From NCBI GenBank assembly GCA_050298055.1, contig JBNKTL010000020.1:22265-86264 (forward strand): DNA of 64,000 nucleotides, given 5' to 3'. The notes below the pieces were generated by a model. It was not told the origin of the DNA. It saw only the letters and a program-made list of their open reading frames with translations, and searched no databases. Position 1 is the stretch's first letter. The number at the start of each line of letters is the position of its first letter. This DNA is from Spirochaetota bacterium. Lineage in GTDB: Bacteria; Spirochaetota; UBA4802; UBA5550. Below are positions 2,793 through 51,109 of the stretch, piece by piece. The translations under genes were made by a program, and so were the position numbers.

Positions 2793-2924
2793 GTAACTCA
2801 GTTATGGAGAGAAATCATATTCATTGAAAAATAACTGGTATGTCCCCGCCGCCTTCGGCGGCGGGGACATATTACTTATGTTTTAGTAAATATATTTATT
2901 TTATCCATATAGCTGAGTAGTAAT
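2793..2924 (+). mobile_element. MITE-like palindromic element, copy 1
   Basis: Ends GTAACTCAG...CTGAGTAGTAAT; central hairpin 2839-2871. Flanks GTTTAATG / GTTTAATT give a 7/8 duplication. Confidence 0.85.
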
Positions 2925-3015
2925 GTTTAATTAATCAGCTACATGGCTATTCTTAAACATTGTCTAAAATGCATTAACCTGAAAAATATCTCCGGGATGA
3001 AAAGGGAACAACTCA

Positions 3016-3480
3016 ATGGCTAATAAAGTGGAAACCACAACAACAGCGCTGCAGATAGTCTGTTTTAAGATAGGAAAAGAAGAGTACGGAATTGATATAT
3101 TAAAAGTGCAGGAGATATTGAAACTTCCAAAGGTGACAAAGCTTCCAAAATCTCAGGAATATATTATCGGTGTTATCGACCTCAGGGGAAAAGTTATTCC
3201 CATAACAGACCTCAGTAAAAAATTCGGGACCGAATCGGGAAAGCTTGATGAAAGCAGCCGTGCAATTGTTGTTGATATTGAAGGAAAGAAGGTTGGACTG
3301 GCTATTGACTCGGTAAGTCATGTGATCAAGATCAAGCAGGAAGATATCGAACCTCCACCGCCAATCGTTAAAGGTATATCCGGAAAGTATATTGTTGGCA
3401 TAGCCAAGCTTGAGAACAGTTTTGTGGTGATCCTTGATATCAGCAAGATCTTCTCTTCACAGGAACTCAGGGCCCTTTAG
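3016..3480 (+). CDS. cheW: Chemotaxis coupling protein CheW
   Basis: FKIGKEEYGIDILKVQEI, GVIDLRGKVIP and VGLAIDSV motifs. Confidence 0.95.
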   Translation: MANKVETTTTALQIVCFKIGKEEYGIDILKVQEILKLPKVTKLPKSQEYIIGVIDLRGKVIPITDLSKKFGTESGKLDESSRAIVVDIEGKKVGLAIDSVSHVIKIKQEDIEPPPPIVKGISGKYIVGIAKLENSFVVILDISKIFSSQELRAL

Positions 3481-3481
3481 A

Positions 3482-4654
3482 TTAATATGATGCTATCAGG
3501 ATAGATTCTATCTCACTGGCATTGAGCTGCCGGGGCGTGTTCTCGTTAAAGGGGTAGGATATGGCAAGCTTAGCAATATCCTTTAATGCAGTTTTCGGTA
3601 AATCATATTGTGAGAGTCTCTGCGGAATGTTTATATCGAGCTCAAGTTTTCTAATTGCTTCAACTGCCTTGATAGCAGCTTCAATGACGGTTATATCCCT
3701 GACATCTTCTCCCATAACCTTTGACATCTGCACATATTTTCCCGGTGAAGATGTCAGGTTAAATTCCATAATATGCGGGAGAATGACACTCATTGCGCTC
3801 TCAATATCCATATCGGTTACTGATGAAATGGCAAGAGATATTGAGAGTGTAACTGATAGATAGGCAATTGCAAAAGTGATTCCGGACATAACCGACGCAG
3901 TAGAGAGGTAAGTCCGGGGATTGGGATTTTGAAGATCCCTGTAAGAAAGGGGGAGGTTCCTGAAGATCAGGTCAATTGATTTGAGCGCATATGTATTTAT
4001 GATGTCATTGTTCATGGTTGATATTACTGATTCCGTTGATATTGCCAGCGTACTCAGTGATGACTTCATGGACAGATCTTCATCAATCTTTGTGGATATT
4101 ACAGGGTCAACGATTGTTGCCACCGGGTAGAGGGATTCATGATAGTACGTTTTGTTTGTGGCATGGTGTATCTCCTTCATGAAGAGAACCGGGGCAATTT
4201 CAAAACCGTATACCGGGTATGCAGGCATTGTAATCAGAGAGACCGGCGGATTATATAATTCGGGTTTTGTCAACAGGTCGTAACAGAAGATATAGTTGTT
4301 AATGAGCAGAGCAATCAGTTTCCCGGCATTTATTGAGTGGACTCCCCCCAGCCCGATTACCAGGTCACAGTTTGTTTTTTTTATGAATGAAACCGCAAGA
4401 TCAATATCTTCCGTGTTGGGCATTGCAGGAAGCTGATCGTACACAATACACCCGATATCAGCTCCCTTGAGGAGACGGGTTATCGTATCAACACTATCAT
4501 GGAAAAGGCCAAGGTCTTCCGATGTAATAACAATAATTACCCGTGAACCGTATTTAGATATAATCTGATCAACCTCCTCCAGAATATTCTGCCGGATATA
4601 GATCTCTGTTGGAAGATGAAAGTCGGGTTTTATGCCCTCAATGGTTCTGTTCAT
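3482..4654 (-). CDS. Iron-containing alcohol dehydrogenase-fold protein with degenerate metal ligands
   Basis: Fe-ADH layout (CDLVIGLGG, P.ATIVDP, ILPHIMEFN, IPQRLS, NTPR). ATG 4654 follows AGGGG. Confidence 0.8.
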   Translation of the reverse strand: MNRTIEGIKPDFHLPTEIYIRQNILEEVDQIISKYGSRVIIVITSEDLGLFHDSVDTITRLLKGADIGCIVYDQLPAMPNTEDIDLAVSFIKKTNCDLVIGLGGVHSINAGKLIALLINNYIFCYDLLTKPELYNPPVSLITMPAYPVYGFEIAPVLFMKEIHHATNKTYYHESLYPVATIVDPVISTKIDEDLSMKSSLSTLAISTESVISTMNNDIINTYALKSIDLIFRNLPLSYRDLQNPNPRTYLSTASVMSGITFAIAYLSVTLSISLAISSVTDMDIESAMSVILPHIMEFNLTSSPGKYVQMSKVMGEDVRDITVIEAAIKAVEAIRKLELDINIPQRLSQYDLPKTALKDIAKLAISYPFNENTPRQLNASEIESILIASY

Positions 4655-4764
4655 AGTCCCCTGCGGTGCTGACAAGCCATAAAAAGAGCGGACATAAAAT
4701 CACTATCTCCGCTCTCCATGAATCACTCAGCATCAAATAATTTAGTGAACTAATTCAATCTCAG

Positions 4765-5055
4765 TTACCTCAGAAGGAAATTAGCAATTCTATCAGCTAC
4801 CAGTTCAAGTACTTTGGAATCATTAAAGTCATAGGAGCCGTTAGCAATTTTTTCCTTTATTTCTTTGACTTTTTCAGTCCTTACATCTGAAGCCTGGGTA
4901 ATAAGCTGAGCATCTTTTGCAATTTCAGCAGCTTTTTTACCTTCAGAGGATATCTGTATGGAATCATTCTTCTTGGTTTCTTTTGCACCAGGAGATGGTT
5001 TTGTCTTCTTTGGCTCAACAATGTTATTTACATTTCCTATCTTATTGATAACCAT
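4765..5055 (-). CDS. flgM: Anti-sigma-28 factor FlgM
   Basis: DSIQIS and DVRTEKVKEIKEKIANGSY motifs; sigma28 promoter upstream. Confidence 0.9.
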   Translation of the reverse strand: MVINKIGNVNNIVEPKKTKPSPGAKETKKNDSIQISSEGKKAAEIAKDAQLITQASDVRTEKVKEIKEKIANGSYDFNDSKVLELVADRIANFLLR

Positions 5056-5086
5056 AATAATTTAACCCTTTTATTTTCTGTTTTAA

Positions 5087-16074: not shown

Positions 16075-16105
16075 AAGAGATTGAAAAAATTAAAAAATGC
16101 CGGCA

Positions 16106-16193
16106 ATGTGTCCCCGCCGCCTTGAGCGGCGGGGACACATCTATTATTTTTTATTCATTAATATATCTATTCTCAACAGAGCTGAGCAGTAAC
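16106..16193 (-). mobile_element. MITE-like palindromic element, copy 2 (partial)
   Basis: Hairpin ATGTGTCCCCGCCGC-N5-GCGGCGGGGACACAT with end AGCTGAGCAGTAAC. The arm matches copy 3 in reverse. Confidence 0.8.
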
Positions 16194-28885: not shown

Positions 28886-29021
28886 GTTACTACCCAAGCT
28901 TTGTATAAAATAGATATATTAGTGAATAAACGATAAGTAATGTGTCTCCGCCGTTGACCGCGGCGGGGATACATGGATGTTATCCTATTAAATATGTTTC
29001 GCCATACGGCTAAGTCGTTTC
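28886..29021 (+). mobile_element. MITE-like palindromic element, copy 3 (degenerate), abutted by a lone perfect end at 29022-29035
   Basis: GTTACTACCCAAGCT...hairpin 28940-28974...GGCTAAGTCGTTTC, followed directly by GTAACTACTCAGCT. Confidence 0.75.
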
Positions 29022-29215
29022 GTAACTACTCAGCTGAATGCAGAGTGACAATAAGGATATCCTGAAAATAATTTATGGAGGTTCTCTTAATATTATTGAC
29101 AATATTTCAGAAGATCTTTCGTTATTGTTTTTTTGTCTCTGAATTGTTTTTTATGTGACAAATAATGTATAATTATATATTATTGTTTTATATAAAAAAA
29201 GATAACTAATTAGAT

Positions 29216-29349
29216 ATTAAATAATTAAATATATGATCAAAATAACCTTTTTCTAAAAGATTAATAATATGTCCCCGCCGCCGAAGGCGGCGGGGACATA
29301 AAAATTATGTTTTTCCATGGATATAATTATTCTAAGCATGTGTAGTTAC
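29216..29349 (-). mobile_element. MITE-like palindromic element, copy 4 (reverse orientation)
   Basis: Hairpin TATGTCCCCGCCGCC-GAA-GGCGGCGGGGACATA with end TAGTTAC at 29349; left boundary approximate. Confidence 0.8.
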
Positions 29350-31279: not shown

Positions 31280-31420
31280 GTAACTACTCGAGCTTAGTAT
31301 AAGAATAACCATATTCATTAAAAATGATAACTGATATGTTCCCGCCGCCCACGGCGGCGGGAACATATTGTTGATATTTTAGTAAATAGGATTATTTTGG
31401 TCATAGAGCTGAGTAGTTAC
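31280..31420 (+). mobile_element. MITE-like palindromic element, copy 5
   Basis: GTAACTACTCG...ATATGTTCCCGCCGCC-CAC-GGCGGCGGGAACATAT...CTGAGTAGTTAC; lies between convergent genes. Confidence 0.9.
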
Positions 31421-36365: not shown

Positions 36366-36384
36366 ATTTTCTTTTTTTAACAAT

Positions 36385-36424: not shown

Positions 36425-36465
36425 GCTTTATCTCTGTTTTTAAGTCATGAGGCTTTTTTATTTGA

Positions 36466-36672: not shown

Positions 36673-36733
36673 CTATTCCTCCTCTGTATTAAGTTTCCCG
36701 CAGAGGAGCTTATAACATATAACGGGTAATATG

Positions 36734-36802
36734 CAATAGGAGAAATCCCTATTGTTTTGTAATACAAAGGAGAAAAGTTTTGTAGGTGTTTGTCCTACAA
36801 AA
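36734..36802. promoter_or_regulatory. Two TAGG-N7-CCTA operator-like palindromes
   Basis: CAATAGG-N7-CCTATTG (36734-36754) and TTTTGTAGG-N7-CCTACAAAA (36778-36802). Confidence 0.55.
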
Positions 36803-36814
36803 TATCATTATTCT

Positions 36815-36946
36815 GTGACTATTCTGTTATGCATAAAAATTGATATTAATGACAACTGATATGTTCCCGCCCCCTTCAGCGGCGGGAACATATTGTCTGT
36901 TCTTTATTAGGCAGATATATTTTTAGCCATACAGTTGAGTCGTTAC
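36815..36946 (+). mobile_element. MITE-like palindromic element, copy 6
   Basis: GTGACTATTCTG...hairpin 36859-36893...TTGAGTCGTTAC; flanks ATTATTCT / TTTATTTT match 6/8. Confidence 0.8.
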
Positions 36947-36947
36947 T

Positions 36948-37736: not shown

Positions 37737-38039
37737 TATCTGTTTTTTTCTTGATTTCAGCCAGCAGGGGATCAATTGTTCATATGGGTACCTTTAATAA
37801 TTTTTCATAATGATGTATTGTTTCCCGTTACAGTAAACATCATAGGATCGTGATTTTTTTCTGTCCAGAAAATAAAATACTTTTTTTAAGAATATCCGGA
37901 AATGATATATGGGTCCGGACTTCGGAATAGTATTTGAAAGGTCTTTGTTGATTTAAGAAAGTATGAAAAAAACCGGAACTATTGAGCAGTGTATTGCTGC
38001 CACATGGTTGAACAGTAAAATAAAATAAGGATATGTGTT

Positions 38040-38828: not shown

Positions 38829-38905
38829 AATATATTTTTTAGAATTTTCTCTATGTCCTGTTCAGACTTTATAGTATAATTAATACGGATCTCTATGGAG
38901 AATCA

Positions 38906-39286
38906 ATGGCAGTGAAAAATATCTACTGGATATATATACTCCTGTGTGACAACGGAAGCTATTACACGGGATATACCGATGACCTTGTGAAACGTTACCG
39001 TCTGCACAGGAGCGGAAAGGGCGGCGCGAAATATACAAGGAGTTTTAAACCGGTGAGGATCGCGCAATGCTGGAAACTTACGGGAGGAAAGGGAACAGCC
39101 CTGAAGCTTGAAAATTTTATTAAGAGCAGGGAGCGGAAAGAGAAAGAAAAAATCGTTGCGAATCCCGGGCTGCTTGAGAATCTCTTCAGCGGTGAAACAG
39201 GGATTAGTATTGAAATCAACCCCTGTGATCCCGATATAATTGAGAGTGAGGCCGGGAATATCAGACCGGATAAAGGGGCCGGGTGA
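38906..39286 (+). CDS. GIY-YIG nuclease (UPF0213-like)
   Basis: IYILLC..GSYYTGYT.D...R...H..G.GAKYTR and ALKLE..IK motifs. Confidence 0.93.
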   Translation: MAVKNIYWIYILLCDNGSYYTGYTDDLVKRYRLHRSGKGGAKYTRSFKPVRIAQCWKLTGGKGTALKLENFIKSRERKEKEKIVANPGLLENLFSGETGISIEINPCDPDIIESEAGNIRPDKGAG

Positions 39287-42200
39287 AGAGATTGAAAGGA
39301 AGAGAGAAAGAAATCGCGGCCTTTATCGACGAGCTCAGGGACAGCCCGGGAAAGAGCGGCAGGCTTATAAATGGGCTTGTTGAAAAAACAAACCGCCTCT
39401 ATCTGAACTTCCCCTTCATCGGACCGGCCAGGAGGATATCATCTGCTCTCAAGAAAGGCCCCTTTTCATATTTCTATGTTTTCGAAAGAACCCTTGCCCA
39501 CAAACTCCATCCTCTTCTCTACAGGTTTGGGTTCAATATTATCTCCAACAGTGTCATCGATAGCCTCTATGATCAGAAGATGGAATACTATAAACCCCTT
39601 ATGCCTCTGAAAGCCGGTAAAGTCCCCGGCAAAACCGTTGATCTCAAAATGAAAAACCTGGTCATGATGAAGGATCTTATACTGCGGATGGTATTCAAGG
39701 ATGGTCATTTCATGGTCATCAAATACTATGATAACAACTTCAGCAGGCTTGACCGGGAGCTTTCATCTATTCTGAAAAGTATTGAGCTCTCCATGCATAA
39801 TATGAAGAGGGGGCTGACGGATGATAAAAAGAGCAACAGTGAAATGATAGGGAAGAGGTTTAAAATCTTCAGAGAAAACCGGGGAAAGGAAAACGGTCCC
39901 CTCTTTATTGAGAGAATGAAGTGGGATGAAGAGCTGAAGGAATATGCGGATATGCTCGGCGAGCTGAAAGAGGACAGATATGGTGAAAACAGTGACTCTG
40001 ATCTCCGCACAATCGACCTTGAGAGTGGTGAGATTCCCGGTGGTGGTGAGGAAATGAGTGCAGATGAACCTGCCGGTGAAGAGGATGATGATGCCCCAAA
40101 AGACCGGGAGAAGAAGACCGGGATTAACGGTTATGCGGACACCATTAAAGTGACGTACCTTGACACAATCAGTGATGAAGATGCCCGTGCCGTTAAGAAA
40201 ATCCTTGAGACCATATATACCACAAACCGGGAAAAGTCCGGTGAAGCAAAAGCAGAGGAGATCGTAACTGACATAGTCGGGATATGGCTCAATGATGAAT
40301 TAATCAGCGGTGCAAAGAAGGATTTCCTGAGATCTGTACACCGGGAAATGTTCGGCAAGAATGAAGGTGAACCGGATGTTGAGAGGAGACTTGATGCCAT
40401 AAGTGACTTTATGGATAATTTTGAGAAGGAAAATAAAGAACCTGTACCTGAAAATACCCTGTTTCAGAATGAAGATGAATTAAGAGGAGGTGTTCCCCAT
40501 ACTGAAGATAATGATGAACATGAAAGATCTTTCGATGTTGAGGAACCTTTTATAGAAGAGGAGCAAGGGGTTGAGATAAAAGATGATAATGTTCCGGAAT
40601 TGGGTGAGTTCCCCGTATCGGGACCGGGAGAGGTTTCGGAACCGGGTGAGTTCCCCGTATCGGGACCGGGAGAGGTTCCGGAATTGGGTGAGTTCCCCGT
40701 ATCGGGACCGGGAGATGTTTCGGAATTGGATGAGTTCCCCGTATCGGGACCGGGAGATGTTTCGGAATTGGATGAGTTTTCCGTATCGGGACCGGGAGAG
40801 GTTCCGGAATTGGGTGAGTTTTCCGTATCGGGACCGGGAGAGGTTGAGGAGCAGGAAAAACATCTTCTTGAGGGAAGGAACGGCAGTGATACCGGTGATA
40901 TCCGGGAACAGGGAGAGAAGAGATTACAGGAGATAGAGGACCGCCTTGATAAGAGGACCAGGGAGCTTGAAGAGGAGGCCGGTGATATATTAAACGGCAG
41001 TGATGAGGAGAAGAAAACAGCTTTTGTCATAAAGATGCTGGGGAGCGAAACAGGAAGTCAATCCCTCTTTAAAATTCTCCCTGATGCTGAAAGTTCCGGC
41101 GGCGAGAACCTCTTCATTAAAATTGTCCGCAAACTTGAGGAAGGGCCCTTCAGGTATATGACACCTTCGGAAAAAGCCGCTTTTATCCGCAGGCTTATTG
41201 AGGTTTTCAGCGCGGATAAAAAACTCGTATCACAGCTTGAAAACTATAAGAAACTTATTGAAAGTCCTTCTGAGCTCCTGGGAAGCGTTACAAACAACCT
41301 GGAGAGAATAGGGAAAGAGAATCCTGATACCGGGTCAGCCATGGTGAAACAATTGAAGTATCTTGAAGAGGTCCTGAAGAATGAGGAATATGAACCTGTC
41401 TGGTTTACTGTGAAAACACTCTACAAAAATATTATAAAACAAAAAAAGAGCAATGTGATAGAAAATGTTACAGGTGACATGTCCGGGCAGCCGCAGTGGA
41501 AGCAGGCGGTCATTCTGCAATTTCTTAAGAGGTTCTACCGGGGAGACAGCAGGAAACAGGATGAACTGGGAAAGAAACTTGCTTTCCGGGAGCTGCAGTC
41601 ACTCACGGAAAGAATTGAAAATGAAAGGAAGGGGGGAACAGCCGATATTAATGAGATCTTTAAAAAATTCACCGGGGGAAGTGCCGGGATCTCCCAATGG
41701 GCTGAGACCGTTATAAAGGAGCAAAGGAAGAAAAGGCCCGCCGGGGATGATCTTTATGATGAGAAGGAGATGACTCAGGAGGAGAAAATCTACAACAGGG
41801 CTCTCGAGCTGGTCAGGTCCTTCCGTGATAATATGGATGCCCTTGGCCCCATTATCAATGCTCTTGCGGGATTAAACAGGGGGGATTTTCAGTCACAGTT
41901 GATGAATGAATACCGGTCCGGCCTGAAAAAGAGGGAGGTACTTGTTAACAGGACGGTCAATGTTATTAAAACCGGAAAGCCGGACGGGAAACTGGTTGAA
42001 GTACTTCATAAATCACCTCCACTGTTCCAGTATGACTGGAGTGAAAGTGTAAAGAAAAAACTGGGTGCCGGAAGCCTTGAAGAAGCAATTAAACCTGTTG
42101 AAAAAAACAGGGACGCATATAGTGAACTCAACCGCATAGCCATGATAATAAAAACCAATAACAAGAATGATTTTCTCAAAAAGGCAGTTGAGAAGGAGAA

Positions 42201-42789
42201 GAAACTGGTCTCTGATATTGCAGGAGACCTCTCACTTGAAGGACTCAGGAAACTCAAATCCAGGACTGTGAGCATCAGGGACAAGGAGAAGATAAACCTC
42301 TTCAGGGACCTCGTGAAAATCGCAGGGGGGGCTGTTGATTCGACAAAAAACCAATATCAGGCTGTATCTGAGAAAAATGCTGCCGGTGAAGAGAAAAGCA
42401 GAGTTCATAAGAGGGAGGAATCGGAGCAGAAAACCGCAGCGGTGAAAGTGAAAAAAGATAAACCGGAAGAACCGGAAATCCGGAACGGACCGGGTATCAG
42501 GGATATTCTCACTGAGATGAATAACTTTATCAATCTCTGCAAGTCGGAGAGAACCAGAAATATGGCCATAAAGAGCAGTAAGAGACGGGTGACCATTGAC
42601 AGCTTTTTTCAGCACCTGGCATCGGGGGATAAACCCAGTGTGGAAGCAGCAAAGAAAAATACCGATGAATTGATTGAAGTTTTTAAAGGGATCATTAAGC
42701 ACCGGTTTCATAAAGCATTTCCCACTGCGGGACCGGCATTGAAATACTGTCTTGATAACGGACTGATAAAAAGATCGGACCTTACCTGA
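39283..42789 (+). CDS. Large hypothetical protein (1168 aa) with acidic 14-aa tandem repeats
   Basis: Uninterrupted ORF with a GTGA overlap to the GIY-YIG gene; no recognisable domain. Confidence 0.8.
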   Translation: MKRLKGREKEIAAFIDELRDSPGKSGRLINGLVEKTNRLYLNFPFIGPARRISSALKKGPFSYFYVFERTLAHKLHPLLYRFGFNIISNSVIDSLYDQKMEYYKPLMPLKAGKVPGKTVDLKMKNLVMMKDLILRMVFKDGHFMVIKYYDNNFSRLDRELSSILKSIELSMHNMKRGLTDDKKSNSEMIGKRFKIFRENRGKENGPLFIERMKWDEELKEYADMLGELKEDRYGENSDSDLRTIDLESGEIPGGGEEMSADEPAGEEDDDAPKDREKKTGINGYADTIKVTYLDTISDEDARAVKKILETIYTTNREKSGEAKAEEIVTDIVGIWLNDELISGAKKDFLRSVHREMFGKNEGEPDVERRLDAISDFMDNFEKENKEPVPENTLFQNEDELRGGVPHTEDNDEHERSFDVEEPFIEEEQGVEIKDDNVPELGEFPVSGPGEVSEPGEFPVSGPGEVPELGEFPVSGPGDVSELDEFPVSGPGDVSELDEFSVSGPGEVPELGEFSVSGPGEVEEQEKHLLEGRNGSDTGDIREQGEKRLQEIEDRLDKRTRELEEEAGDILNGSDEEKKTAFVIKMLGSETGSQSLFKILPDAESSGGENLFIKIVRKLEEGPFRYMTPSEKAAFIRRLIEVFSADKKLVSQLENYKKLIESPSELLGSVTNNLERIGKENPDTGSAMVKQLKYLEEVLKNEEYEPVWFTVKTLYKNIIKQKKSNVIENVTGDMSGQPQWKQAVILQFLKRFYRGDSRKQDELGKKLAFRELQSLTERIENERKGGTADINEIFKKFTGGSAGISQWAETVIKEQRKKRPAGDDLYDEKEMTQEEKIYNRALELVRSFRDNMDALGPIINALAGLNRGDFQSQLMNEYRSGLKKREVLVNRTVNVIKTGKPDGKLVEVLHKSPPLFQYDWSESVKKKLGAGSLEEAIKPVEKNRDAYSELNRIAMIIKTNNKNDFLKKAVEKEKKLVSDIAGDLSLEGLRKLKSRTVSIRDKEKINLFRDLVKIAGGAVDSTKNQYQAVSEKNAAGEEKSRVHKREESEQKTAAVKVKKDKPEEPEIRNGPGIRDILTEMNNFINLCKSERTRNMAIKSSKRRVTIDSFFQHLASGDKPSVEAAKKNTDELIEVFKGIIKHRFHKAFPTAGPALKYCLDNGLIKRSDLT
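40591..40842 (+). repeat. Coding tandem repeat, 6 x 42 bp (VPELGEFPVSGPGE)
   Basis: Units start at 40591, 40633, 40675, 40717, 40759 and 40801, with no spacers. Confidence 0.95.
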
Positions 42790-42794
42790 ACCTT

Positions 42795-43100
42795 CTATCC
42801 TTTGAAGAGGCTCTTGGCTTTATCCTTCCCGGTGAGATAGAGGTAATCATCATAATCAACAAAGGTCAGTTCGGGGAGCTTCTTCCTTGTCCTTATTACA
42901 ATTTCTGATTTTCCTTTCCCGGCCTCTTTGGATGTTACGTACTTTATCTCCCTGCCGCAGGAAGGACATTTTTCCAGGTCAGTGAGTTCAATCCCGATTG
43001 TTTTACACTTGTGGCAGTGGGCAAACTTATCATCGACCATTATGATGTGCTCTTCAATATCCTTTATATCCATCTCTGTCCATATCCTGATATAATCCAT
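42795..43100 (-). CDS. Small zinc-ribbon protein
   Basis: CHKC...CPSC motif; RBS GAGG. Confidence 0.75.
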   Translation of the reverse strand: MDYIRIWTEMDIKDIEEHIIMVDDKFAHCHKCKTIGIELTDLEKCPSCGREIKYVTSKEAGKGKSEIVIRTRKKLPELTFVDYDDYLYLTGKDKAKSLFKG

Positions 43101-43203
43101 GATTCCTCCTTACATCTTTTTTCTGGAACCATTAATGAGTTCCTTGGAACTAATGACTCATTTTAAACGCTTGCATCAGAATGTAAAATATTTTTTTTGG
43201 TAA

Positions 43204-44250
43204 TTATTCAGACTTATCAGTTATTATGATAGAGTCGGGCAGGAATGAGCTTCTGTCTCTCCCGTTCTCATAATGAAATTCCCTGTATATTTCATGGGGA
43301 TTTCGGGCATAATATCCGTCGATGATCTCTATAATATCATCTATTTTTTCTTTCTGCCTTATGAGAGTAAAAAGATGGTGGGCGAACTTCACGTTTCCTG
43401 AAAAGTAGTAACAGAACCTCAGGCTCCTGCTCTTTTGAAGATTGGGGGGGAGATATTTTTTCAGGGAGAGGAGTGTGCTGATAAAGATTTCTTTCAGGTT
43501 CACCTTCAGGCTGATAGAACCTTCACCATTCAGGATCTTCCTGCAGAGGGTGAAAATCCATGGGGACTTTACCGCTTCCCTCCCTATCATGATTCCGTGA
43601 CATCCATACTTCAACATCTTTGATACACCGGTTTCAGGTTCCGTTATATCTCCGTTACCAATTATCGGGATATCTACATTTTCTCTTATTAATCGTATCA
43701 GGTCCCAGTCGGCCTTTCTCTTGAATGATATTTTCGCGGACCGGGGATGGACGGTAATAAAATCCACTCCTTCGTCTTTCAGCATTTTTACAAAGTCGAG
43801 AAGCCTCTCCTTATTACTGGACGTAAATCCTGTTCGCATCTTAACGGAAAGCCGTGTCTTTACGGCTTTTCTGCAGCTTCGCACTATTTCCCTGGTTCTC
43901 CGGGTATCATTGAGAAGGGCGGCCCCGGAACCTTTTTTGATAATATCCGGCGCAGAACAGCCCATGTTTATATCAATTGAAAAACATCCCCTCTCAGAGA
44001 GAACTCTACAGGCTTCTGACATTCTCTTTTCACAGTTTCCGAGAACCTGGTAAATATAAGGATTGTCAAACTCGTATCTCCCCATCAAAGGCGTGTTGTG
44101 TTCAGCTCCGGAGACAATTGCACCGGCACTGAGCATCTCGGAAAAGGTTATTATTTCGGGGGAAAATAACTTTACCGTTCTCCGCAGGGCAGGGGTTGAG
44201 ACTTCGGCCATTGGTGCCAGAAAAAATGGTGTGGGGAAAGGATCTTTCAT
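43204..44250 (-). CDS. dus: tRNA-dihydrouridine synthase family protein
   Basis: LAPMA, IDINMGC, GSGAALL, TVHPR, GNGDI and GIMIGR motifs; ATG 44250. Confidence 0.92.
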   Translation of the reverse strand: MKDPFPTPFFLAPMAEVSTPALRRTVKLFSPEIITFSEMLSAGAIVSGAEHNTPLMGRYEFDNPYIYQVLGNCEKRMSEACRVLSERGCFSIDINMGCSAPDIIKKGSGAALLNDTRRTREIVRSCRKAVKTRLSVKMRTGFTSSNKERLLDFVKMLKDEGVDFITVHPRSAKISFKRKADWDLIRLIRENVDIPIIGNGDITEPETGVSKMLKYGCHGIMIGREAVKSPWIFTLCRKILNGEGSISLKVNLKEIFISTLLSLKKYLPPNLQKSRSLRFCYYFSGNVKFAHHLFTLIRQKEKIDDIIEIIDGYYARNPHEIYREFHYENGRDRSSFLPDSIIITDKSE

Positions 44251-44251
44251 T

Positions 44252-46522
44252 TTAATTGGGTGAGAGAAGTTCCTCAACTTTGGCCAGGAAAGTTGAGGGT
44301 TCCAGTGGTTTCTGCATGAACTCAAGGTTCTCCTGCTGTATCCCCTTTGCGGAGAGTATGTCGTCGGTATGCCCGCTTATGAAGAGGACCTTGATATCAG
44401 GATTCATTTTCTTGATCTCCCCGTGCACAACCTTCCCGTTTTTGCCCGGCATAACCACATCCAGGATGACAAGATCAATAAGCTCCCTGTTTCCTCTGAA
44501 CATGGATACGGCTTCATCTCCGTCGTTTGCGGTGATGATATAGTACCCCTTCCTCCCAAGGTAGTTTGAAATAAATCTTCTCACGGCCCTGTCATCTTCC
44601 GCTATCAAAATAAATTTTCCCCTTTCAGCAGGGCCTGGTTTTCTTATGGGCATACTTTTGATGTTTGAAACCGGAGCGGCATCACCTTCGGGAATGTAGA
44701 TCATAAAAGTGCTCCCCTCTCCCGTCTTTGTAATTATATCGATATACCCGCTGTGTTGAGAAACGATATTATAAATTATTGATAATCCGAGTCCTGTCCC
44801 CTTTGTGCTTTCCCGGGTGGTAAAGAACGGTTCAAAAATCTTGTTCAGGTTCTCTTCATAAATACCGGTTCCCGTGTCACTGACTATAAGCACCATGTAG
44901 CTTCCGGGAAGAATTGTGGTGCAGTTTCCGTTATAAATATTCCCGGTTCTGAAAGTATCTGTCTTAATGATGAGTCTGCCTCCGTCGGGCATTGAGCTTT
45001 CCGCATTTGTAACCAGGTTGATCAGGATCTGTTCCATCTGGTGTCTGTCTGCATAAACAGCTTTTTCATCATCAATGGTTTCTATGACAAGCTCTATATC
45101 CTCTGAAAGAAGTGTCTTGATAATACTTTTCATATTGGCGATAATATCAAACATGTAGACATTCTCTTTTTTTGTAATCTGTTTTTTCCCGAAAGCCAGA
45201 AGGTTCGAAGTGAGGTTTTTCCCGAGGTTGGCCGCGGTGTTTATCTGCTTTATATATTCTTTGATGTTATCGGTTTTATAGCTTATATCGAGATCAAGGA
45301 GTTCTGTGAAGCCTGTGATTGACGTGAGGATATTATTGAAGTCATGAGCAATCCCTCCTGCGAAAAGACCCAGGGATTCCATTTTCTGTGATCTGAACAG
45401 CTGGTCTTCAAGTTTTTTCTTTTCCGTGATGTCCCTGCTGCTTGACCTTCTTCCGAGGAATTCTCCATCCTGGAAAATAGGGCTGCAGACATGTGAAAGC
45501 CATCGTATTTCTCCGGATTTGGTAACAATCCTGTATTCGATCTCTTCATGTACCGGGGCATTAAAGCTGTCGTGATGGGCGTCATATATTTTCCTGTCCT
45601 CTCGATAGATGATGTCGGTGATAAGCCCCGGTTTTTTTTCAAATTCCTCCTGCTTATACCCGGTGATCCTTTCACAGGATTGTGATATATATTCGAGATT
45701 ACGGTCTTTGTTGATCCAGGATTCAAAATCGTAAGCAAAATCTGAAACTATCATGAACTTTCTTTCATTCTCTGAGAGATCATCCTGATATTTTTTTATT
45801 CCCCTTGAAAAAACAACCAGCAGGCCCATGCCAAAAAACCAGATCAAGAGGTGCGTAATAATAATTGTCCCGCTATTCGATCTCTGTATCAGGTAATAGG
45901 GCTTCATGGGGACTGCGATACTCATTCCACCCCGGATGTCTCCGACGTCGTATCCCTGGTAACCGTGGCATTTTAAACATCTTTTTTCAGTGATATATGG
46001 TGTTAACAGCCTGAGATAGGGTTCACCCTTGATATCCGTAATCTCATAGACTTCCGGGACCCCTTTTTCAAAGAGTGATATCCCCCTGGATTCCCATTCA
46101 TCTGCCTGGTTATTCGGACTGAGCGGATCATCGCTTACTGTCCTGTTTATTGTGGCCAGGGGTGTTTGTTTCTTTAAAAGGGCGTATACCTGTTTTGTCA
46201 TCTGGAACGGGTTTACAAGAGTCAGGAGAGTCCCGTCCGTGGTTTTTATATTTCTCTGTATCCCTTCTGCGAGGTAGCTGTTTTCTTTGTTGTATCCGGA
46301 TATCCTGGCATATACTCCTCCCGTAAATGCATTCCATCTTCTGTATGCCAGATTATGCTGTGAAATTGTCCTGGCTTCAATAAGGGCTTTCTCGACAGTA
46401 CTTTTTCTGTTTTTCTCAAGGTTCCAGAGAATTGAAAATAACAGGAGCAGGGTCCATACAATCATGTATGTACGGGAATGGTTTTGAAACCAGATCTTTT
46501 TTATGATGTTCCTGAGATGCAT
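44252..46522 (-). CDS. Hybrid histidine kinase: periplasmic heme-c (DUF3365-like) sensor, PAS, HisKA/HATPase, REC
   Basis: CLKCH...GDIRGG, AGGIAHDFNNIL, FEPFFTT, GTGLGL and C-terminal LDVVMP motifs. Confidence 0.92.
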   Translation of the reverse strand: MHLRNIIKKIWFQNHSRTYMIVWTLLLLFSILWNLEKNRKSTVEKALIEARTISQHNLAYRRWNAFTGGVYARISGYNKENSYLAEGIQRNIKTTDGTLLTLVNPFQMTKQVYALLKKQTPLATINRTVSDDPLSPNNQADEWESRGISLFEKGVPEVYEITDIKGEPYLRLLTPYITEKRCLKCHGYQGYDVGDIRGGMSIAVPMKPYYLIQRSNSGTIIITHLLIWFFGMGLLVVFSRGIKKYQDDLSENERKFMIVSDFAYDFESWINKDRNLEYISQSCERITGYKQEEFEKKPGLITDIIYREDRKIYDAHHDSFNAPVHEEIEYRIVTKSGEIRWLSHVCSPIFQDGEFLGRRSSSRDITEKKKLEDQLFRSQKMESLGLFAGGIAHDFNNILTSITGFTELLDLDISYKTDNIKEYIKQINTAANLGKNLTSNLLAFGKKQITKKENVYMFDIIANMKSIIKTLLSEDIELVIETIDDEKAVYADRHQMEQILINLVTNAESSMPDGGRLIIKTDTFRTGNIYNGNCTTILPGSYMVLIVSDTGTGIYEENLNKIFEPFFTTRESTKGTGLGLSIIYNIVSQHSGYIDIITKTGEGSTFMIYIPEGDAAPVSNIKSMPIRKPGPAERGKFILIAEDDRAVRRFISNYLGRKGYYIITANDGDEAVSMFRGNRELIDLVILDVVMPGKNGKVVHGEIKKMNPDIKVLFISGHTDDILSAKGIQQENLEFMQKPLEPSTFLAKVEELLSPN

Positions 46523-46878
46523 TTTTTATAACGTATACTCAATTTGTTTTCACTTGGCCATCATGTGTCAAGTAAATCTCTCCTGAATAGTTCCAGAAAA
46601 ATGTATAAATTGGATATCAGATTAAGAAGAATCTAACTATAAATATGAAAAAATATCTGTTTAAAATCAAAAAAAAATGCCATTTCCCGGGATCGGTTAA
46701 TGTATTTTTTATTTTTTGTTTATTATGGTCATAATGATGAGTTACAATTTATTTATCATTTGTGGATAAGTTGTAATTTATGTCTATCTATTTTGTCCCA
46801 AAAGTTGAATATTTACATATCCTTGAGCCGTTACCCTCTCTTTTATATTTGCTTGACAATTGGAATAATAGAATAATC

Positions 46879-47018
46879 GTAACTACTCAACTATGTATAA
46901 GAATAATCATATTCACTAAAAAAGATAACTGATATGTCCCCGCCGCCTTCGGCGGCGGGGACATATTGTTGATATTTTAGCAAATAAGTTTATTATAGCC
47001 ATATAGCTGAGTAGTTAC
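46879..47018 (+). mobile_element. MITE-like palindromic element, copy 7 (most intact, 140 bp)
   Basis: TIRs GTAACTACTCAACTAT / ATAGCTGAGTAGTTAC and a perfect 16-bp central stem. Exact 8-bp duplication GAATAATC at 46871-46878 and 47019-47026. Confidence 0.95.
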
Positions 47019-47051
47019 GAATAATCCTGAATAAATATTTGGAAGGTTATT

Positions 47052-48371
47052 GTGGAATTAAAACGTCAGATTGGCCTTGTCACTGCTGTCTTTATTATTA
47101 TTGCCGATGTTATCGGGACCGGAATATTCATGACCACGGGAAATGTCCTGGGTATGACGGGAAATGCCGGGTCAGTCATTCTCCTCTGGGGTATAGGCGG
47201 TCTTGTGGCCCTCACAGGGTCCCTCTGTTATGCTGAACTTGCTTCAATATGGCCCCAGAGCGGCGGAGAATATATATACCTGAGAAATATCTACGGTTAC
47301 CTGCCGTCGTTTTTGACGGGCTGGATTTCTCTCGTTGTGGGATTTACGGCTTCAGCGGCAATATCCGCCATGCTTGTGGTTATCTACCTCAATGAATTCA
47401 TGCAGGGAGGTATACTGGCCGGAATATGGACACAGAAAATTGTTGCTTCCCTGATTGTGGTTTTTTTCGCGGCAGTCCATATTGTTGGAGTCCGGAGAGG
47501 AAGTATCATCCAGAATCTCCTGACAATACTTAAAATTCTGCTGGTTTTAGCGCTCATTGCTTTTGGGTTTTATGCGGCAGACTGGGGAAGTGCCGGGAGG
47601 CTTACGGCAGTTTATGAGAGCGCCGGGGACAAATCAATCATTGAGTATGGAAGCGCCCTCCTGGTAATAATGTACGCGTATTCAGGATGGAACGGAACAA
47701 GCTATATAGCCGGAGAGATAAAAGACCCGGCCCGGAACCTTCCCCGTGCATTGTTTTTCGGAGTACTGATCGTCGGGGTCATCTACATGCTTCTCAATAT
47801 TGTCTACCTTATTTCTTCACCGGGTCCGGAACTCATGGGCAAAGACGCAGTAGGTGCAATCGCGGCCAGGAACCTCTTCGGGGAAGGGATCTCTCCCGTC
47901 TTCACCCTGGGAATTGCGCTTATTCTCCTCTCATCTGTTTCGGTACAGATCATGGTGGGTCCCCGGGTCTATCATGCCATGGCAGGTGACGGTCTTATCT
48001 TCAGGTTCCTTGACAGGGTCAATTCCAAATATCATACACCCCATACGGCCATAATCATCCAGGCCGGGATCACCATACTCTACGTCTTCCTGGGTATGGG
48101 AAATGTTATATCGCTTCTTATCTACCTGGGATTCGCCCTTGGGATTTTTCCCCTTATGGCTGTAATTGGCCTGATCATTGTGAGAGTGAAACATCCGGAA
48201 CTTTCAACGGGATACAGGGTACCCCTCTTTCCCCTGGTTCCTCTTATCTATATACTCCTCACGGCAGGTATGATGATTACATCTCTTCTTACATCATATA
48301 AAACCGTGCTCACAGCCCTTGGTGTGGTATTTCTCGGAATTGCGGTCTATACCGTGTGGAAAAGGAAGTAA
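47052..48371 (+). CDS. APC family amino acid permease
   Basis: IGTGIF, YAEL...P.SGGEY.Y and YSGWN....AGEIKDP motifs; about 12 TM. Confidence 0.95.
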   Translation: MELKRQIGLVTAVFIIIADVIGTGIFMTTGNVLGMTGNAGSVILLWGIGGLVALTGSLCYAELASIWPQSGGEYIYLRNIYGYLPSFLTGWISLVVGFTASAAISAMLVVIYLNEFMQGGILAGIWTQKIVASLIVVFFAAVHIVGVRRGSIIQNLLTILKILLVLALIAFGFYAADWGSAGRLTAVYESAGDKSIIEYGSALLVIMYAYSGWNGTSYIAGEIKDPARNLPRALFFGVLIVGVIYMLLNIVYLISSPGPELMGKDAVGAIAARNLFGEGISPVFTLGIALILLSSVSVQIMVGPRVYHAMAGDGLIFRFLDRVNSKYHTPHTAIIIQAGITILYVFLGMGNVISLLIYLGFALGIFPLMAVIGLIIVRVKHPELSTGYRVPLFPLVPLIYILLTAGMMITSLLTSYKTVLTALGVVFLGIAVYTVWKRK

Positions 48372-48412
48372 GGGTCTATTTGGGATGAATAAAAAAAGTG
48401 TTTAATTTCAAT

Positions 48413-49671: not shown

Positions 49672-49828
49672 GAGTCAAGTTATCCTTGTTTTTTCCATCA
49701 TATAAATTTTACATGCGGCAGTGTGTCAAGTTTTATCTCTTGTATCACTTTTTATTTTTCCTTGACTAAATACCGCCCCTCTTTAAGAAGAGTAGAATAT
49801 TCGGGAAAGAGGTCCCGAATAACAGATC

Positions 49829-50332
49829 ATGGAGTTAAATATGAAAAACCTGCTGACTTTTATGCTTCTCTTAACTGTGCTTCTCTTCAGTTCGTGTGCC
49901 AAATCACCTGAAGGGGTCCAATCTCCCAGTATAAAGATCGAAGCGGTTACTGAAAATGAGCACACAACATTTAAATTGTGGGTGAGCGGGGGAATCAAGA
50001 ACGAAAACTCCGGCACGGCACTTATTGATTATGCCGGGACATTAAACTTCATTGATCCTTCGGATGGGGGAAAAGTGGTTGAATCAATTCCCTTTAAGCT
50101 TCCGGTGATTCTGCCCTTTGATTCTGCCGTTATTAACGAAACTGTTTCAAGGAGTGAAAAGGAGCTTGAACCGCTAATGAAACTCTTGAAGATCAACAGG
50201 GAAGAGCTGATTAAAGAAGGGAGCGTGGAAAAGATAAATATCCTGAACAGCCTTGTAAAGCTTGACGCTGTTTCTTTCAAAACGAAAGAGATAACTAAAC
50301 TCCTGAAGGAAAAGTTAAATGAAAAAAATTGA
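49829..50332 (+). CDS. Hypothetical lipoprotein
   Basis: Lipobox LFSSC; start may be 49841. Confidence 0.75.
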   Translation: MELNMKNLLTFMLLLTVLLFSSCAKSPEGVQSPSIKIEAVTENEHTTFKLWVSGGIKNENSGTALIDYAGTLNFIDPSDGGKVVESIPFKLPVILPFDSAVINETVSRSEKELEPLMKLLKINREELIKEGSVEKINILNSLVKLDAVSFKTKEITKLLKEKLNEKN

Positions 50333-50846
50333 TGATTCAAAGCTCTATTTCTCTTTTGCCCTGGTCACCCTGGCAATAAGCATTGTACTCGGGATTATAT
50401 CATTCTATTCGATACTTGGTGTAGAGAAGAATATAGTAAACCTGCTGTCCGGGGAAGAAAACAGCGGCAAAAGCTTTGAAAAGGCTTATTTACTTCTGCG
50501 AAAACCGCAGTTTTTTGCCCGTTATCAGCACTTTGATACTGAACAGGATTTGCATGTGAGCCTCTCCTCCGCAAGGAGGTTTGACCTTGAGTCAAAGGAA
50601 TCCCTGAAAAAACTGCTGGAAAACACCTATCCCGGAACTACGGTGATGAAGGCGCTCAGGTATTTTGACAGAAAGGTTTACGCGGGTAAAGGCATCGAAC
50701 CTGATGAAAAAAAGTACCTTGAAGTACTCCTGGACAGGAGAAAAAAGGGTTCACGGCTCGGAAGAAATACCATGATATTTACTCTCGCCCTCTCCCTCTT
50801 TAGCATGTTGTTTTTCTTATATGAAAGGAGAACAGTAAAGGGATAG
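50319..50846 (+). CDS. Hypothetical membrane protein (2 TM)
   Basis: N- and C-terminal TM helices; overlaps the previous gene. Confidence 0.72.
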   Translation: MKKIDDSKLYFSFALVTLAISIVLGIISFYSILGVEKNIVNLLSGEENSGKSFEKAYLLLRKPQFFARYQHFDTEQDLHVSLSSARRFDLESKESLKKLLENTYPGTTVMKALRYFDRKVYAGKGIEPDEKKYLEVLLDRRKKGSRLGRNTMIFTLALSLFSMLFFLYERRTVKG

Positions 50847-50849
50847 CCT

Positions 50850-50872
50850 GTAGCCATGGGTTTTAACCCATG
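50850..50872. repeat. GTAG-type REP-like palindrome
   Basis: GTAG-C-CATGGGTT-TT-AACCCATG immediately after a stop codon. Confidence 0.55.
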
Positions 50873-50956
50873 CCTCGTTCTTTTCCCCGGAATATTTTTT
50901 CCCCTTTCCATTAATTATTTGACTCTTCCTTATAAGTTCTTATTATTATCCTGATA

Positions 50957-51109
50957 GCAACTACTCGGCTATGTAATAAGAATAGTTTTATTCAATAAAA
51001 AGCATAACTGGTATGTCCCCGCCTCAACCGCGGCAGGGACATATTGCTGATACTGTAATAAATAGTATGAGTAAATTCTCATGGCATATTAACTGATAAA
51101 CAGGGTAAC
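50957..51109 (+). mobile_element. MITE-like palindromic element, copy 8 (right end degenerate)
   Basis: GCAACTACTCGGCTATG...TATGTCCCCGCC-N8-GGCAGGGACATA; right boundary approximate. Confidence 0.78.

What the first reader, a model, noticed from the sequence alone, without database searches (positions are those of the whole stretch)
2793..51109. Dispersed family of ~140-bp palindromic elements with IS66-type ends and 8-bp target duplications (8 copies in 64 kb)
Seen: homologous intergenic copies at 2793-2924, 16106-16193, 28886-29021, 29216-29349, 31280-31420, 36815-36946, 46879-47018 and 50957-~51109, in both orientations. Consensus is GTAACTACTCAGCT-AT-rich arm-ATATGTCCCCGCCGCC(TTC)GGCGGCGGGGACATAT-arm-AGCTGAGTAGTTAC. 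The arms are also imperfectly complementary (AATAATCATATTCACTAAAA versus reverse-complemented AATAAACTTATTTGCTAAAA), so the whole unit is one long hairpin. Copy 7 has an exact 8-bp duplication (GAATAATC); copy 1 matches 7/8 and copy 6 matches 6/8. Established: GTAA termini with 8-bp direct repeats are typical of the IS66 family, including the ISBst12 group. Inference: this is a non-autonomous IS66-derived MITE family, which could reach hundreds of copies genome-wide at this density. No transposase is present in the window, and I do not recognise the family as described.
Basis: partly seen in the sequence, partly recalled or inferred. Interest (0 to 1): 0.85.

Follow-up and report, generated by a model that had tools for sequence, protein, structure and literature searches.

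The report
Miniature IS66-type jumping DNA family
The repeats are copies of a 141-base gene-less mobile element (about 400 per genome) whose ends match a single-gene IS66-family insertion sequence in the same genome, which likely moved them: an ordinary kind of selfish DNA, unusual in that a different miniature element in related genera has the same central hairpin.

Summary
All eight copies are real. Genome-wide there are 397 loci, 0.98% of the assembly. Of 124 near-full copies, 56 have an 8-bp target duplication with at most 1 mismatch, against 1.5 expected.

The missing partner exists. At least three copies of an insertion sequence in this genome carry the same 16-bp ends, and one has an exact 8-bp duplication. 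They are broken at contig ends. Open reading frames of 136 and 162 aa from the two ends of an IS66-family transposase are visible. Full 1.5-kb single-gene copies occur in related genera. A published ISBst12-group element, ISDge4, has nearly the same ends and an 8-bp duplication.

Only the 16-bp ends are shared with the insertion sequence. The interior is a GC hairpin core, and a different 121-bp element (CAGT ends, 9-bp duplications) in sister genera has the same core. One chimera joins the two types.

Copies are old (median 79% identity to consensus). They are enriched between divergent genes and show no orientation bias.

This scan has already reported ISBst12-type MITEs in at least eight other genomes, and this same family once. 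My own scan found such elements in many phyla. Verdict: a new member of a known kind, of modest interest.

The parts
2793..2924 (+). MITE copy 1 (132 bp), flanked by GTTTAATG / GTTTAATT (7 of 8)
   Evidence: nhmmer hit 2796-2921, profile positions 7-138; ends and flanks read
16092..16193 (-). MITE copy 2, truncated (about 100 bp: hairpin plus one arm and one terminus)
   Evidence: nhmmer hit, profile positions 1-103; sequence
28886..29021 (+). MITE copy 3, diverged (GTTACTACCCAAGC... ends), no recognisable duplication
   Evidence: nhmmer 28886-29019
29022..29035 (+). Exact solitary terminus GTAACTACTCAGCT abutting copy 3; together with the right end at 29349 it may bound a 328-bp composite, but no duplication flanks it
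29216..29349 (-). MITE copy 4, one end degenerate
   Evidence: nhmmer 29230-29347, profile positions 3-128
31280..31420 (+). MITE copy 5, full length (141 bp), no recognisable duplication; lies between two convergent ORFs
   Evidence: nhmmer profile positions 1-141, 132 bits
36815..36946 (+). MITE copy 6 (132 bp), flanks ATTATTCT / TTTATTTT (6 of 8)
46871..46878 (.). Left copy of the exact 8-bp target duplication GAATAATC of copy 7
46879..47018 (+). MITE copy 7, the best copy (140 bp, 146 bits): 16-bp inverted ends, AT-rich arms, central 16-bp GC-rich stem with a 3-nt loop
47019..47026 (.). Right copy of the target duplication GAATAATC of copy 7
50957..51109 (+). MITE copy 8, right end degenerate (the profile match ends at 51068)

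Best explanation
The eight repeats belong to a family of 397 copies of a 141-bp non-coding element with 16-bp inverted ends and 8-bp target duplications, and it is likely moved in trans by the transposase of a 1.5-kb single-gene IS66-family (ISBst12-type) insertion sequence that carries the same ends. Shown directly: the ends, the duplications, the copy number, the presence of that insertion sequence in the same genome, and its family. Inferred: the transposase would bind the 16-bp ends GTAACTACTCAGCTAT, make cuts staggered by 8 bp in AT-rich DNA and insert the element. Only the 16-bp ends are shared with the insertion sequence. The element is therefore probably not a plain internal-deletion derivative. 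More likely it is a pair of ends that came to flank a pre-existing AT-rich arm plus GC-hairpin core, which a second MITE family in sister genera also has. The family is old and mostly decayed. Its excess in front of genes is explained in part by an AT-rich target preference, and I see no sign of a host function.
For: Copy number: 397 non-overlapping nhmmer loci (E <= 1e-3), 46,066 bp or 0.98% of the assembly, of which 124 are near full length.

Duplications: at length 8 the mismatch counts 0 to 8 are 23, 33, 22, 21, 11, 5, 6, 2 and 1 of 124. Shuffled flank pairs give 0.22, 1.28 and 5.16 for 0, 1 and 2 mismatches. Lengths 7 and 9 give 2 exact each. Targets are AT-rich: A or T at 47 to 54 of 56 duplications at positions 2-7. 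Short derivatives of 32, 42, 52, 77, 86 and 103-115 bp keep both ends and a duplication with at most 1 mismatch. The 32-bp one is just two ends flanked by an exact TCTTATTC.

Partner in the same genome: C43:44265-44769 and C73:11352-11425 start with GTAACTACTCAGCTAT. C43 then encodes the last 162 aa of an IS66-family transposase (PF03050, E 3e-12). C74:1-488, C75:1-77 and C91:1-77 hold the other end. C74 has an open 136-aa N-terminus that is 63-66% identical to the relatives' transposases. The flank of C43 (TAATTTTT) equals the flank of C75, an exact 8-bp duplication.

Full copies in relatives: these are 1543, 1536 and 1518 bp long, have the same ends and one ORF of 480-482 aa. The ORFs of the first two (L014, L016) were scanned and match NF033517 at 297 and 299 bits (cut-off 180), plus PF03050, zf-IS66 and DUF6444; the third (L018) was not scanned. 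An alignment of IS ends and MITE ends agrees over the first 14-16 bases only.

Literature: ISDge4 of Deinococcus geothermalis, ISBst12 group, has ends GTGACTACTCAGCA and GTAACTGCTCAGCA, a single 449-aa transposase and an 8-bp direct repeat (PMC12898284, passages).

Of these, 22 hold short elements (32-294 bp) with both ends, a duplication with at most 1 mismatch and unrelated interiors.
Against: An intact transposase gene is not shown in this genome. About 0.5 kb in the middle of the insertion sequence is missing from the assembly.

The copies are old. Median identity to the consensus is 79%, the closest pair is 95% identical, and no two are identical. Only 1 of 124 has both 16-bp ends exact and 9 of 124 have at most 1 mismatch in each. 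Recent movement is therefore not shown. 46 of 124 copies have 3 or more mismatches in the 8-bp flanks.

Of the three relatives' IS copies with both flanks in hand, only the deleted one (L015) shows a duplication (7 of 8); L014 and L018 do not.

G012 has a related GTAAC-type MITE family (94 candidates) but no detectable IS66-family transposase in its 94%-complete, 400-contig assembly.

Sharing only 16 bp means that descent from this insertion sequence is not shown. What is shown is that the ends could be recognised by the same enzyme.
Confidence: 0.88

Rival explanations
1. The element is a plain internal-deletion derivative of the insertion sequence: a classic MITE made by losing the transposase gene and keeping the sub-terminal IS sequence.
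For: The ends are identical over 16 bp. A deleted 1085-bp IS derivative exists in a relative (L015). Deletion series of the MITE itself exist.
Against: Beyond base 16 there is no similarity to either end of the own-genome IS or of the relatives' IS. The interior shares its central 45 nt with a MITE family that has different ends.
Confidence: 0.07
2. The copies are host-selected hairpin elements (REP-like or terminator or insulator modules) kept for gene regulation, and transposition is incidental.
For: The simple scan ranks the central hairpins of copies 7, 5 and 4 as the strongest terminator-like sites in 28500-48000 and finds a promoter-like TTGATA-N16-TATTAT in the right arm. The best sub-threshold Rfam matches are to the 3' terminator ends of sRNA models (NrrF 26.8 bits against a gathering score of 60). 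The two sides of the central stem pair in 91.2% of cells against 87.4% after shuffling (0 of 300 shuffles reach it), whereas the ends do not covary (84.6% against 84.0%). The hairpin is identical across genera whose arms differ.
Against: Copies are depleted where terminators are expected: 12 lie between convergent ORFs against 43 expected by length, or 30 by AT-rich 8-mers. There is no orientation bias with respect to the downstream gene (88 against 107), GC skew or gene strand. The T-runs lie 3-8 nt from the stem. Copies decay freely. The duplications and inverted ends show spread by transposition.
Confidence: 0.05
3. The element is moved by another transposase of the genome, such as the canonical three-gene-type IS66 copies on C91, C87 and C14.
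For: Canonical IS66-family transposases of 516-535 aa are present. IS66-family elements also make 8-bp duplications (recalled).
Against: Their ends read GTAAGCGTC... (C91 and C14), and the G011 copies are similar. They match the MITE in the first four bases only, whereas the ISBst12-type IS matches in 16 of 16.
Confidence: 0.04

Closest known systems
ISBst12 group of the IS66 family (for example ISDge4 of Deinococcus geothermalis; PMC12898284, passages read)
   Same: The terminal sequence is nearly the same (GTAACTACTCAGCT here; GTGACTACTCAGCA and GTAACTGCTCAGCA in ISDge4). Both make an 8-bp direct repeat. The partner IS here has one IS66-family DDE transposase gene and no accessory genes, and is about 1.5 kb long.
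   Different: The window's element is 141 bp, encodes nothing, is present in about 400 copies, and shares only the 16-bp ends with the IS.
   Same: Both are abundant intergenic elements of about 100-150 bp with inverted ends that fold into a long hairpin, often close to gene starts.
   Different: Correia elements duplicate TA, have 26-bp ends and no identified parent IS (recalled). This family duplicates 8 bp and has an identified partner.
REP/BIME extragenic palindromes
   Same: Both have a GC-rich hairpin in AT-rich intergenic DNA at high copy number.
   Different: REPs have no terminal inverted repeats and no target duplication, and are tied to RAYT (Y1) enzymes (recalled). Here the hairpin sits inside an element with inverted ends and duplications.
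SPRITE and RUP of Streptococcus pneumoniae (review PMC10969869, passages read)
   Same: These are MITE-type repeats with terminator-like hairpins that cluster and insert into each other.
   Different: They are unrelated in sequence and partner IS. Terminator activity is not supported by the distribution seen here.
CAGT-type 121-bp MITE of sister genera
   Same: The central 45 nt are the same, including the hairpin CCCCGCCGCC-NNN-GGCGGCGGGG. Both have hundreds of candidate copies per genome.
   Different: Its ends are CAGTATTTATTCCT and its duplications in the copies read are 9 bp. Its partner IS is unknown: no PF03050 match was found in G013 or G004, and G011 has only canonical IS66.

Membership tests
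MITE (miniature inverted-repeat transposable element) | Small size and no coding capacity | tested here: met
   The consensus is 141 bp. It is far too short for a transposase.
MITE | Terminal inverted repeats | tested here: met
   The ends are 16 bp, GTAACTACTCAGCTAT, with per-position conservation of 0.64-0.98 over 124 copies and alignment A1.
MITE | Target-site duplication of fixed length | tested here: met
   At 8 bp, 23 of 124 are exact and 56 of 124 have at most 1 mismatch, against 0.22 and 1.5 expected. Lengths 7 and 9 give 2 exact each.
MITE | Many dispersed copies | tested here: met
   397 loci on most large contigs, 8 of them in the window.
MITE | An autonomous element with the same ends | tested here: met
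   In the own genome: C43, C73, C74, C75 and C91. Full copies in G019, G009 and G061.
MITE | Insertion polymorphism or empty sites | tested here: inconclusive
   No close relative was available, no paralogous empty site was found, and contigs of other runs break at the copies.
IS66 family, ISBst12 group (as the source of the ends) | Ends begin GTAA and match ISBst12-group ends | tested here: met
   The window's terminus differs from each of the two ISDge4 ends quoted in PMC12898284 at 2 of 14 bases.
IS66 family, ISBst12 group | 8-bp direct repeats | tested here: met
   for the MITE; for the own-genome IS (TAATTTTT on both sides).
IS66 family, ISBst12 group | The partner has one IS66-family DDE transposase gene and no TnpA/TnpB genes | tested here: met
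   Relatives have a single ORF of 480-482 aa inside elements of 1518-1543 bp. The L016 and L014 ORFs score 297 and 299 bits on NF033517 (cut-off 180) and match PF03050. In the own genome only the two ends of the gene are assembled.
IS66 family, ISBst12 group | Mobilisation of the MITE by that transposase | not testable with these tools
   This needs a transposition assay.
REP/BIME | A bare palindrome of 20-40 nt with no inverted ends and no target duplication | tested here: not met
   In this genome 269 of 332 loose hairpin matches lie inside the MITE family, and the other 63 are unrelated sequences. The copies carry inverted ends and duplications.
Correia/CREE | TA target duplication (recalled) | tested here: not met
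   The duplication is 8 bp.
Any Rfam family | A match at the gathering score | tested here: not met
   0 matches in the window. On copy 7 only sub-threshold matches appear; the best by bit score are NrrF and mir-6095, both 26.8 bits against gathering scores of 60 and 100.
Intrinsic terminator | A GC stem directly followed by a T-run, placed after genes | tested here: inconclusive
   The simple scan flags the hairpins, but copies are depleted between convergent ORFs and no RNA data were available.

The most novel reading that the evidence does not exclude
The 45-nt GC-hairpin core is a portable module shared by two unrelated miniature transposon families of one bacterial family: an ISBst12-type with 8-bp duplications and a CAGT-type with 9-bp duplications. 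The two families swap halves by recombination at the hairpin, and the core is kept intact by selection. The same chassis would thus be handed from one transposase to another instead of each MITE arising from its own insertion sequence.
Probability: 0.3. Interest if true: 0.55.

Novelty: new member of a known kind. Interest (0 to 1): 0.38.

Why it matters
The finding names the enzyme family behind one of the commonest repeats of this genome (about 1% of the DNA). This helps annotation and explains why the assembly breaks where it does.

My seven literature searches found no paper that links a MITE to the IS66/ISBst12 group. Yet the exact 16-base end occurs in bacteria of many phyla and in an archaeal assembly, often bounding short elements with 8-bp duplications. 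ISBst12-type transposases may therefore be a widespread and under-recognised source of MITEs.

The shared hairpin core and the chimera offer a concrete case for studying how miniature elements acquire new ends.

It does not reveal a new kind of mobile element, and no host function is supported.

Tried and rejected
Empty sites.
- Contigs of four other public runs were laid on window 28500-48400. They break at or run through the copies, and no joint skips one element plus one duplication. This says nothing either way.
- A metagenome scan with the ORF at 29949-31238 returned 12 loci, none above 38% identity, so no orthologous site was available.
- In-script joined flanks of the near-full copies (those with 100 N-free bases on both sides, of 124) were searched against the own genome. 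This gave 5 hits, four of them to the query's own locus and one weak (77% over 69 nt), so no paralogous empty site was found.
- Only G000 represents its genus among the 41 relatives searched.

Terminator or promoter role. The scan flags both, but there is no orientation bias and copies are depleted between convergent ORFs. The gene context rests on my own crude ORF caller (at least 100 aa; 3726 ORFs; 85.7% coding).

Partner of the CAGT-type element. PF03050 gives only canonical IS66 in G011 and nothing in G013, G004 or G012. No pair of CAGT ends 1-6 kb apart with a duplication exists in the own genome.

Rest of the own-genome IS. It is not found by BLAST or tblastn. Three small contigs read only N and were left alone.

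Literature. No paper was found that ties a MITE to IS66 or ISBst12. In the listed papers that I opened (PMC3189936, PMC9769881, PMC12888890; passages only), IS66 and MITEs are unrelated table entries. ISfinder could not be consulted.
Full report
OBSERVATION

- The terminus GTAACTACTCAGCT (up to 2 mismatches) occurs 8 times in the window against 0.19 expected. None of 100 shuffles reaches 8.
- The hairpin half-site ATATGTCCCCGCCGCC (up to 3 mismatches) occurs 16 times against 0.27 expected.
- A profile built from 104 near-full genomic copies finds the eight window copies at 2796-2921+, 16092-16193-, 28886-29019+, 29230-29347-, 31280-31420+, 36815-36946+, 46879-47018+ and 50959-51068+.
- The flanks are as reported. 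Copy 7 has an exact GAATAATC on both sides, copy 1 matches 7 of 8 and copy 6 matches 6 of 8. Copies 3, 4, 5 and 8 show no duplication.
- Copy 2 is a truncated half. Copies 4 and 8 each have one decayed end.
- Copy 7 folds as one long hairpin from end to end (DNA -34.7 kcal/mol, z -9.1; RNA -62.7 kcal/mol, z -10.5).
- No Rfam family reaches its gathering score in the window. On copy 7 only sub-threshold matches appear.

GENOME-WIDE PICTURE

The window is G000:C20:22265-86264 of a 4.71-Mb assembly in 199 contigs with 44% G+C. Earlier notes of this scan call the organism an uncultured spirochaete. I did not test that.

After removing the second-strand hit of each palindromic locus, nhmmer gives 397 loci (E <= 1e-3). 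They total 46,066 bp, or 0.98% of the assembly, and 124 are near full length.

For those 124, the number of mismatches between the 8 bases on either side is distributed 23, 33, 22, 21, 11, 5, 6, 2, 1 (for 0 to 8 mismatches). Shuffled flank pairs give 0.22, 1.28 and 5.16 for 0, 1 and 2 mismatches. Lengths 7 and 9 give 2 exact matches each. The duplication is therefore 8 bp and is far beyond chance, although 46 of 124 copies have lost it.

The duplicated 8-mers are AT-rich at positions 2-7 (47 to 54 of 56).

The genome also holds shortened forms with both ends and a duplication with at most 1 mismatch. Their lengths are 32, 42, 52, 77, 86 and 103-115 bp. The 32-bp form is nothing but two ends, flanked by an exact TCTTATTC.

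THE PARTNER

A Pfam IS66-transposase search of the own genome gave four places. Two of them (C91, C14) belong to canonical IS66 elements whose ends read GTAAGCG.... The end of C87 seen has a similar terminal motif, but I did not map its ends.

The fourth, at the end of contig C43, is different. At C43:44265 the sequence GTAACTACTCAGCTAT starts, followed on the other strand by the last 162 aa of an IS66-family transposase, and then the contig stops. C73 ends with the same 74 bases.

The other end of the element lies at C74:1-488. It has an open 136-aa N-terminus that is 63-66% identical to the relatives' transposases. The same end is also present at C75:1-77 and C91:1-77.

The 8 bases before the element on C43 (TAATTTTT) equal the 8 bases after it on C75. 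The genome therefore holds at least three copies of this insertion sequence, and the assembly collapsed at them. One copy has a demonstrable exact 8-bp duplication. About 0.5 kb of its middle is not assembled.

In the same taxonomic family, 8 of 64 genomes (G000 included) have a match to the C-terminal piece. Three of them carry full elements of 1543, 1536 and 1518 bp, bounded by GTAACTAATCAGCT, GTAACTACTCAGCT and GTAACTATTCAGCA. Each has a single ORF of 480-482 aa. The ORFs of the first two (L014, L016) match NF033517 (IS66 family transposase) at 299 and 297 bits against a cut-off of 180, and also PF03050, zf-IS66 and DUF6444; the third (L018) was not scanned.

Of the three relatives' IS copies with both flanks in the locus, only the deleted 1085-bp one shows a duplication (7 of 8).

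An alignment of five own-genome IS ends, four relatives' IS ends and four MITE ends is identical or nearly so over the first 14-16 bases and unrelated after that.

WHAT IS KNOWN

PMC12898284 (passages read) describes ISDge4 of Deinococcus geothermalis as a member of the ISBst12 group of the IS66 family. It has one 449-aa transposase gene, ends GTGACTACTCAGCA and GTAACTGCTCAGCA, and an 8-bp direct repeat. The paper reports its transposition. The ends of the window's element are the same motif.

I found no paper that ties a MITE to IS66 or ISBst12.
- The searches were 'IS66' with 'miniature inverted-repeat transposable' (11 papers), 'ISBst12' with 'MITE' (0), 'IS66' with 'MITEs' (16), 'IS66 family' with 'non-autonomous' (3), 'ISBst12' alone (6), the end sequences as text (7, of which only the Deinococcus paper is relevant), and a spirochaete/MITE search.
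- In the three hits I opened (passages only), IS66 and MITEs are separate table entries.
- A census of MITEs across 183,232 genomes notes that Spirochaetes average 145 MITEs per genome, but in the passages I read it names no IS family (PMC11602168).
- ISfinder could not be consulted.

BEYOND THIS GENOME

They include Bacillus, Paenibacillus, Bacteroidales, Anaerolineae, Methylococcaceae, Thiomargarita, Leptospirales, Elusimicrobia, Desantisbacteria, Babeliales and a Methanotrichaceae archaeon.

In 22 of the 121 loci the other end lies 32-294 bp away and the 8-bp flanks differ by at most 1. The interiors are unrelated to each other. Miniature elements with ISBst12-type ends are thus common and arise repeatedly.

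Earlier reports of this scan reached the same reading in at least eight other genomes, and once for this family in this genome. I looked these up after my own tests.

CONTEXT, AGE AND FUNCTION

I used a crude ORF caller of my own (at least 100 aa; 3726 ORFs). Of 393 copies on contigs of at least 5 kb:
- 195 lie between tandem ORFs, 160 between divergent ORFs and 12 between convergent ORFs;
- 9 lie inside an ORF and 17 at contig edges.

Expected counts for tandem, divergent and convergent are 210, 115 and 43 by intergenic length (chi-square p 1e-9). By the number of AT-rich 8-mers they are 201, 137 and 30. Target preference therefore explains part, but not all, of the excess in front of genes.

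Distances to ORF starts peak at 20-40 bp (96 of 515). Orientation is unbiased with respect to the downstream gene (88 against 107), local GC skew (p 0.54) and gene strand (p 0.42).

The copies are old. Median identity to the consensus is 79%, median pairwise identity is 68%, and the closest pair is 95% identical. Only 1 of 124 has both 16-bp ends intact.

A simple scan ranks the central hairpins as the best terminator-like sites of the region and finds a promoter-like motif in the right arm. The distribution and the lack of orientation bias argue against selection for either role.

The two sides of the central stem stay complementary more often than shuffling predicts (91.2% against 87.4%; 0 of 300 shuffles reach the observed value). 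The ends do not show this (84.6% against 84.0%; 19 of 300). This is a modest sign that the hairpin is maintained. Subfamilies with compensated changes contribute to it.

THE SHARED CORE

In this genome the hairpin occurs essentially only inside this family: 269 of 332 loose matches lie in it, and the other 63 are unrelated sequences.

In other genera of the same family, matches to the element cover only its centre (13 of 41 genomes including G000 have any match). There the same hairpin sits in a different element of 121 bp with ends CAGTATTTATTCCT. In the copies I read, the duplications are 9 bp. The first-look candidate counts were 411, 194 and 335 in G011, G013 and G004.

The consensus sequences of the two kinds align only over positions 40-86 of the window's element, which is the hairpin plus about 17 A-rich bases.

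One genus, G012, has both kinds.
- Its GTAAC-type family (94 candidates) has exact 8-bp duplications in 6 of the 10 copies with both flanks in view, and 8 of the 10 differ by at most 1. It includes 79-105-bp forms that lack the hairpin.
- One element there has a CAGT-type left half (47 of 51 identical to a CAGT copy) and a GTAAC-type right half (52 of 59) that meet at the hairpin.

This is a single example. It shows that halves can be exchanged at the core. It also fits the view that the window's family was built by new ends around an older core and not by deletion of the insertion sequence.

VERDICT

This is a non-autonomous element of the MITE class with the ends and footprint of the ISBst12 group of the IS66 family, and its likely driver is present in the same genome. 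It is a new member of a known kind. The only unusual feature is the hairpin core shared with a second family.

Noticed in passing
G011, G013, G004 (for example L025:1539-1659, L030, L037): A second MITE family of about 121 bp with ends CAGTATTTATTCCT and 9-bp duplications in the copies read. It carries the same central GC hairpin as the window's element. First-look candidates number 194-411 per genome. Its partner IS is unknown.
   Followed up: partly
G011:C1, whole chromosome: The asymmetric end CAGTATTTATTCCTTAAC switches strand with chromosome position among the 51 exact matches listed. It is 13 minus to 3 plus between 0.40 and 1.25 Mb, 16 plus to 0 minus between 1.54 and 3.53 Mb, and 9 minus to 5 plus after 3.55 Mb. 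This looks like an orientation bias tied to the replichores or to gene direction. The window's own family shows no such bias.
   Followed up: no
G012: L028/L003 about 291-425; L069, L070, L073, L075: One chimeric element has a CAGT-type left half and a GTAAC-type right half joined at the hairpin. It is flanked by a 9-bp repeat AAATTTATA if its right end is read as ...GTTACCTG. G012 also has hairpin-less GTAAC-type forms of 79-105 bp with exact 8-bp duplications.
   Followed up: partly
window 29022-29349: An exact terminus starts directly after copy 3. Together with the right end of copy 4 it bounds 328 bp, of which about 190 bp are unrelated to the family. No duplication flanks it. It may be a longer variant or a nested or rearranged pair.
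   Followed up: partly
G000 contigs C91, C87, C14:1-350: Canonical IS66-family elements (transposase frames of 516-535 aa) with GTAAGCG-type ends coexist with the ISBst12-type element. C91 is a 2.7-kb contig made of one such IS plus 77 bp of the ISBst12-type end.
   Followed up: partly
G000: C8:40316, C10:80314, C34:32740, C5:12149, C41:29963: Solitary CAGTATTAATTCCT(G/A)AACTT ends with unrelated sequence behind them and no matching partner end within 6 kb. These may be relics of the CAGT-type family in this genome.
   Followed up: no
G000, all hairpin-bearing copies: The 3-nt loop of the central hairpin reads GAA in 61 copies and TTC in 53, relative to the arm-defined orientation. The loop, or the whole perfect palindrome, therefore appears to flip independently of the arms.
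   Followed up: no
Genome-contig loci L089, L129, L144: The exact 16-base ISBst12-type end also lies near contig ends of an archaeal (Methanotrichaceae) assembly. The element type may therefore cross domains, unless the contigs are mis-binned.
   Followed up: no
window 46969-46996 and 31371-31398: A promoter-like TTGATA-N16-TATTAT/TATTTT lies in the right arm of copies 7 and 5 and points outwards. It matches the consensus only, and no orientation bias supports its use.
   Followed up: partly
G000 contigs C121, C140, C170: Three small contigs (543-696 bp) read entirely as N. The missing middle of the ISBst12-type element could lie in such unassembled or masked pieces. They were not probed.
   Followed up: no
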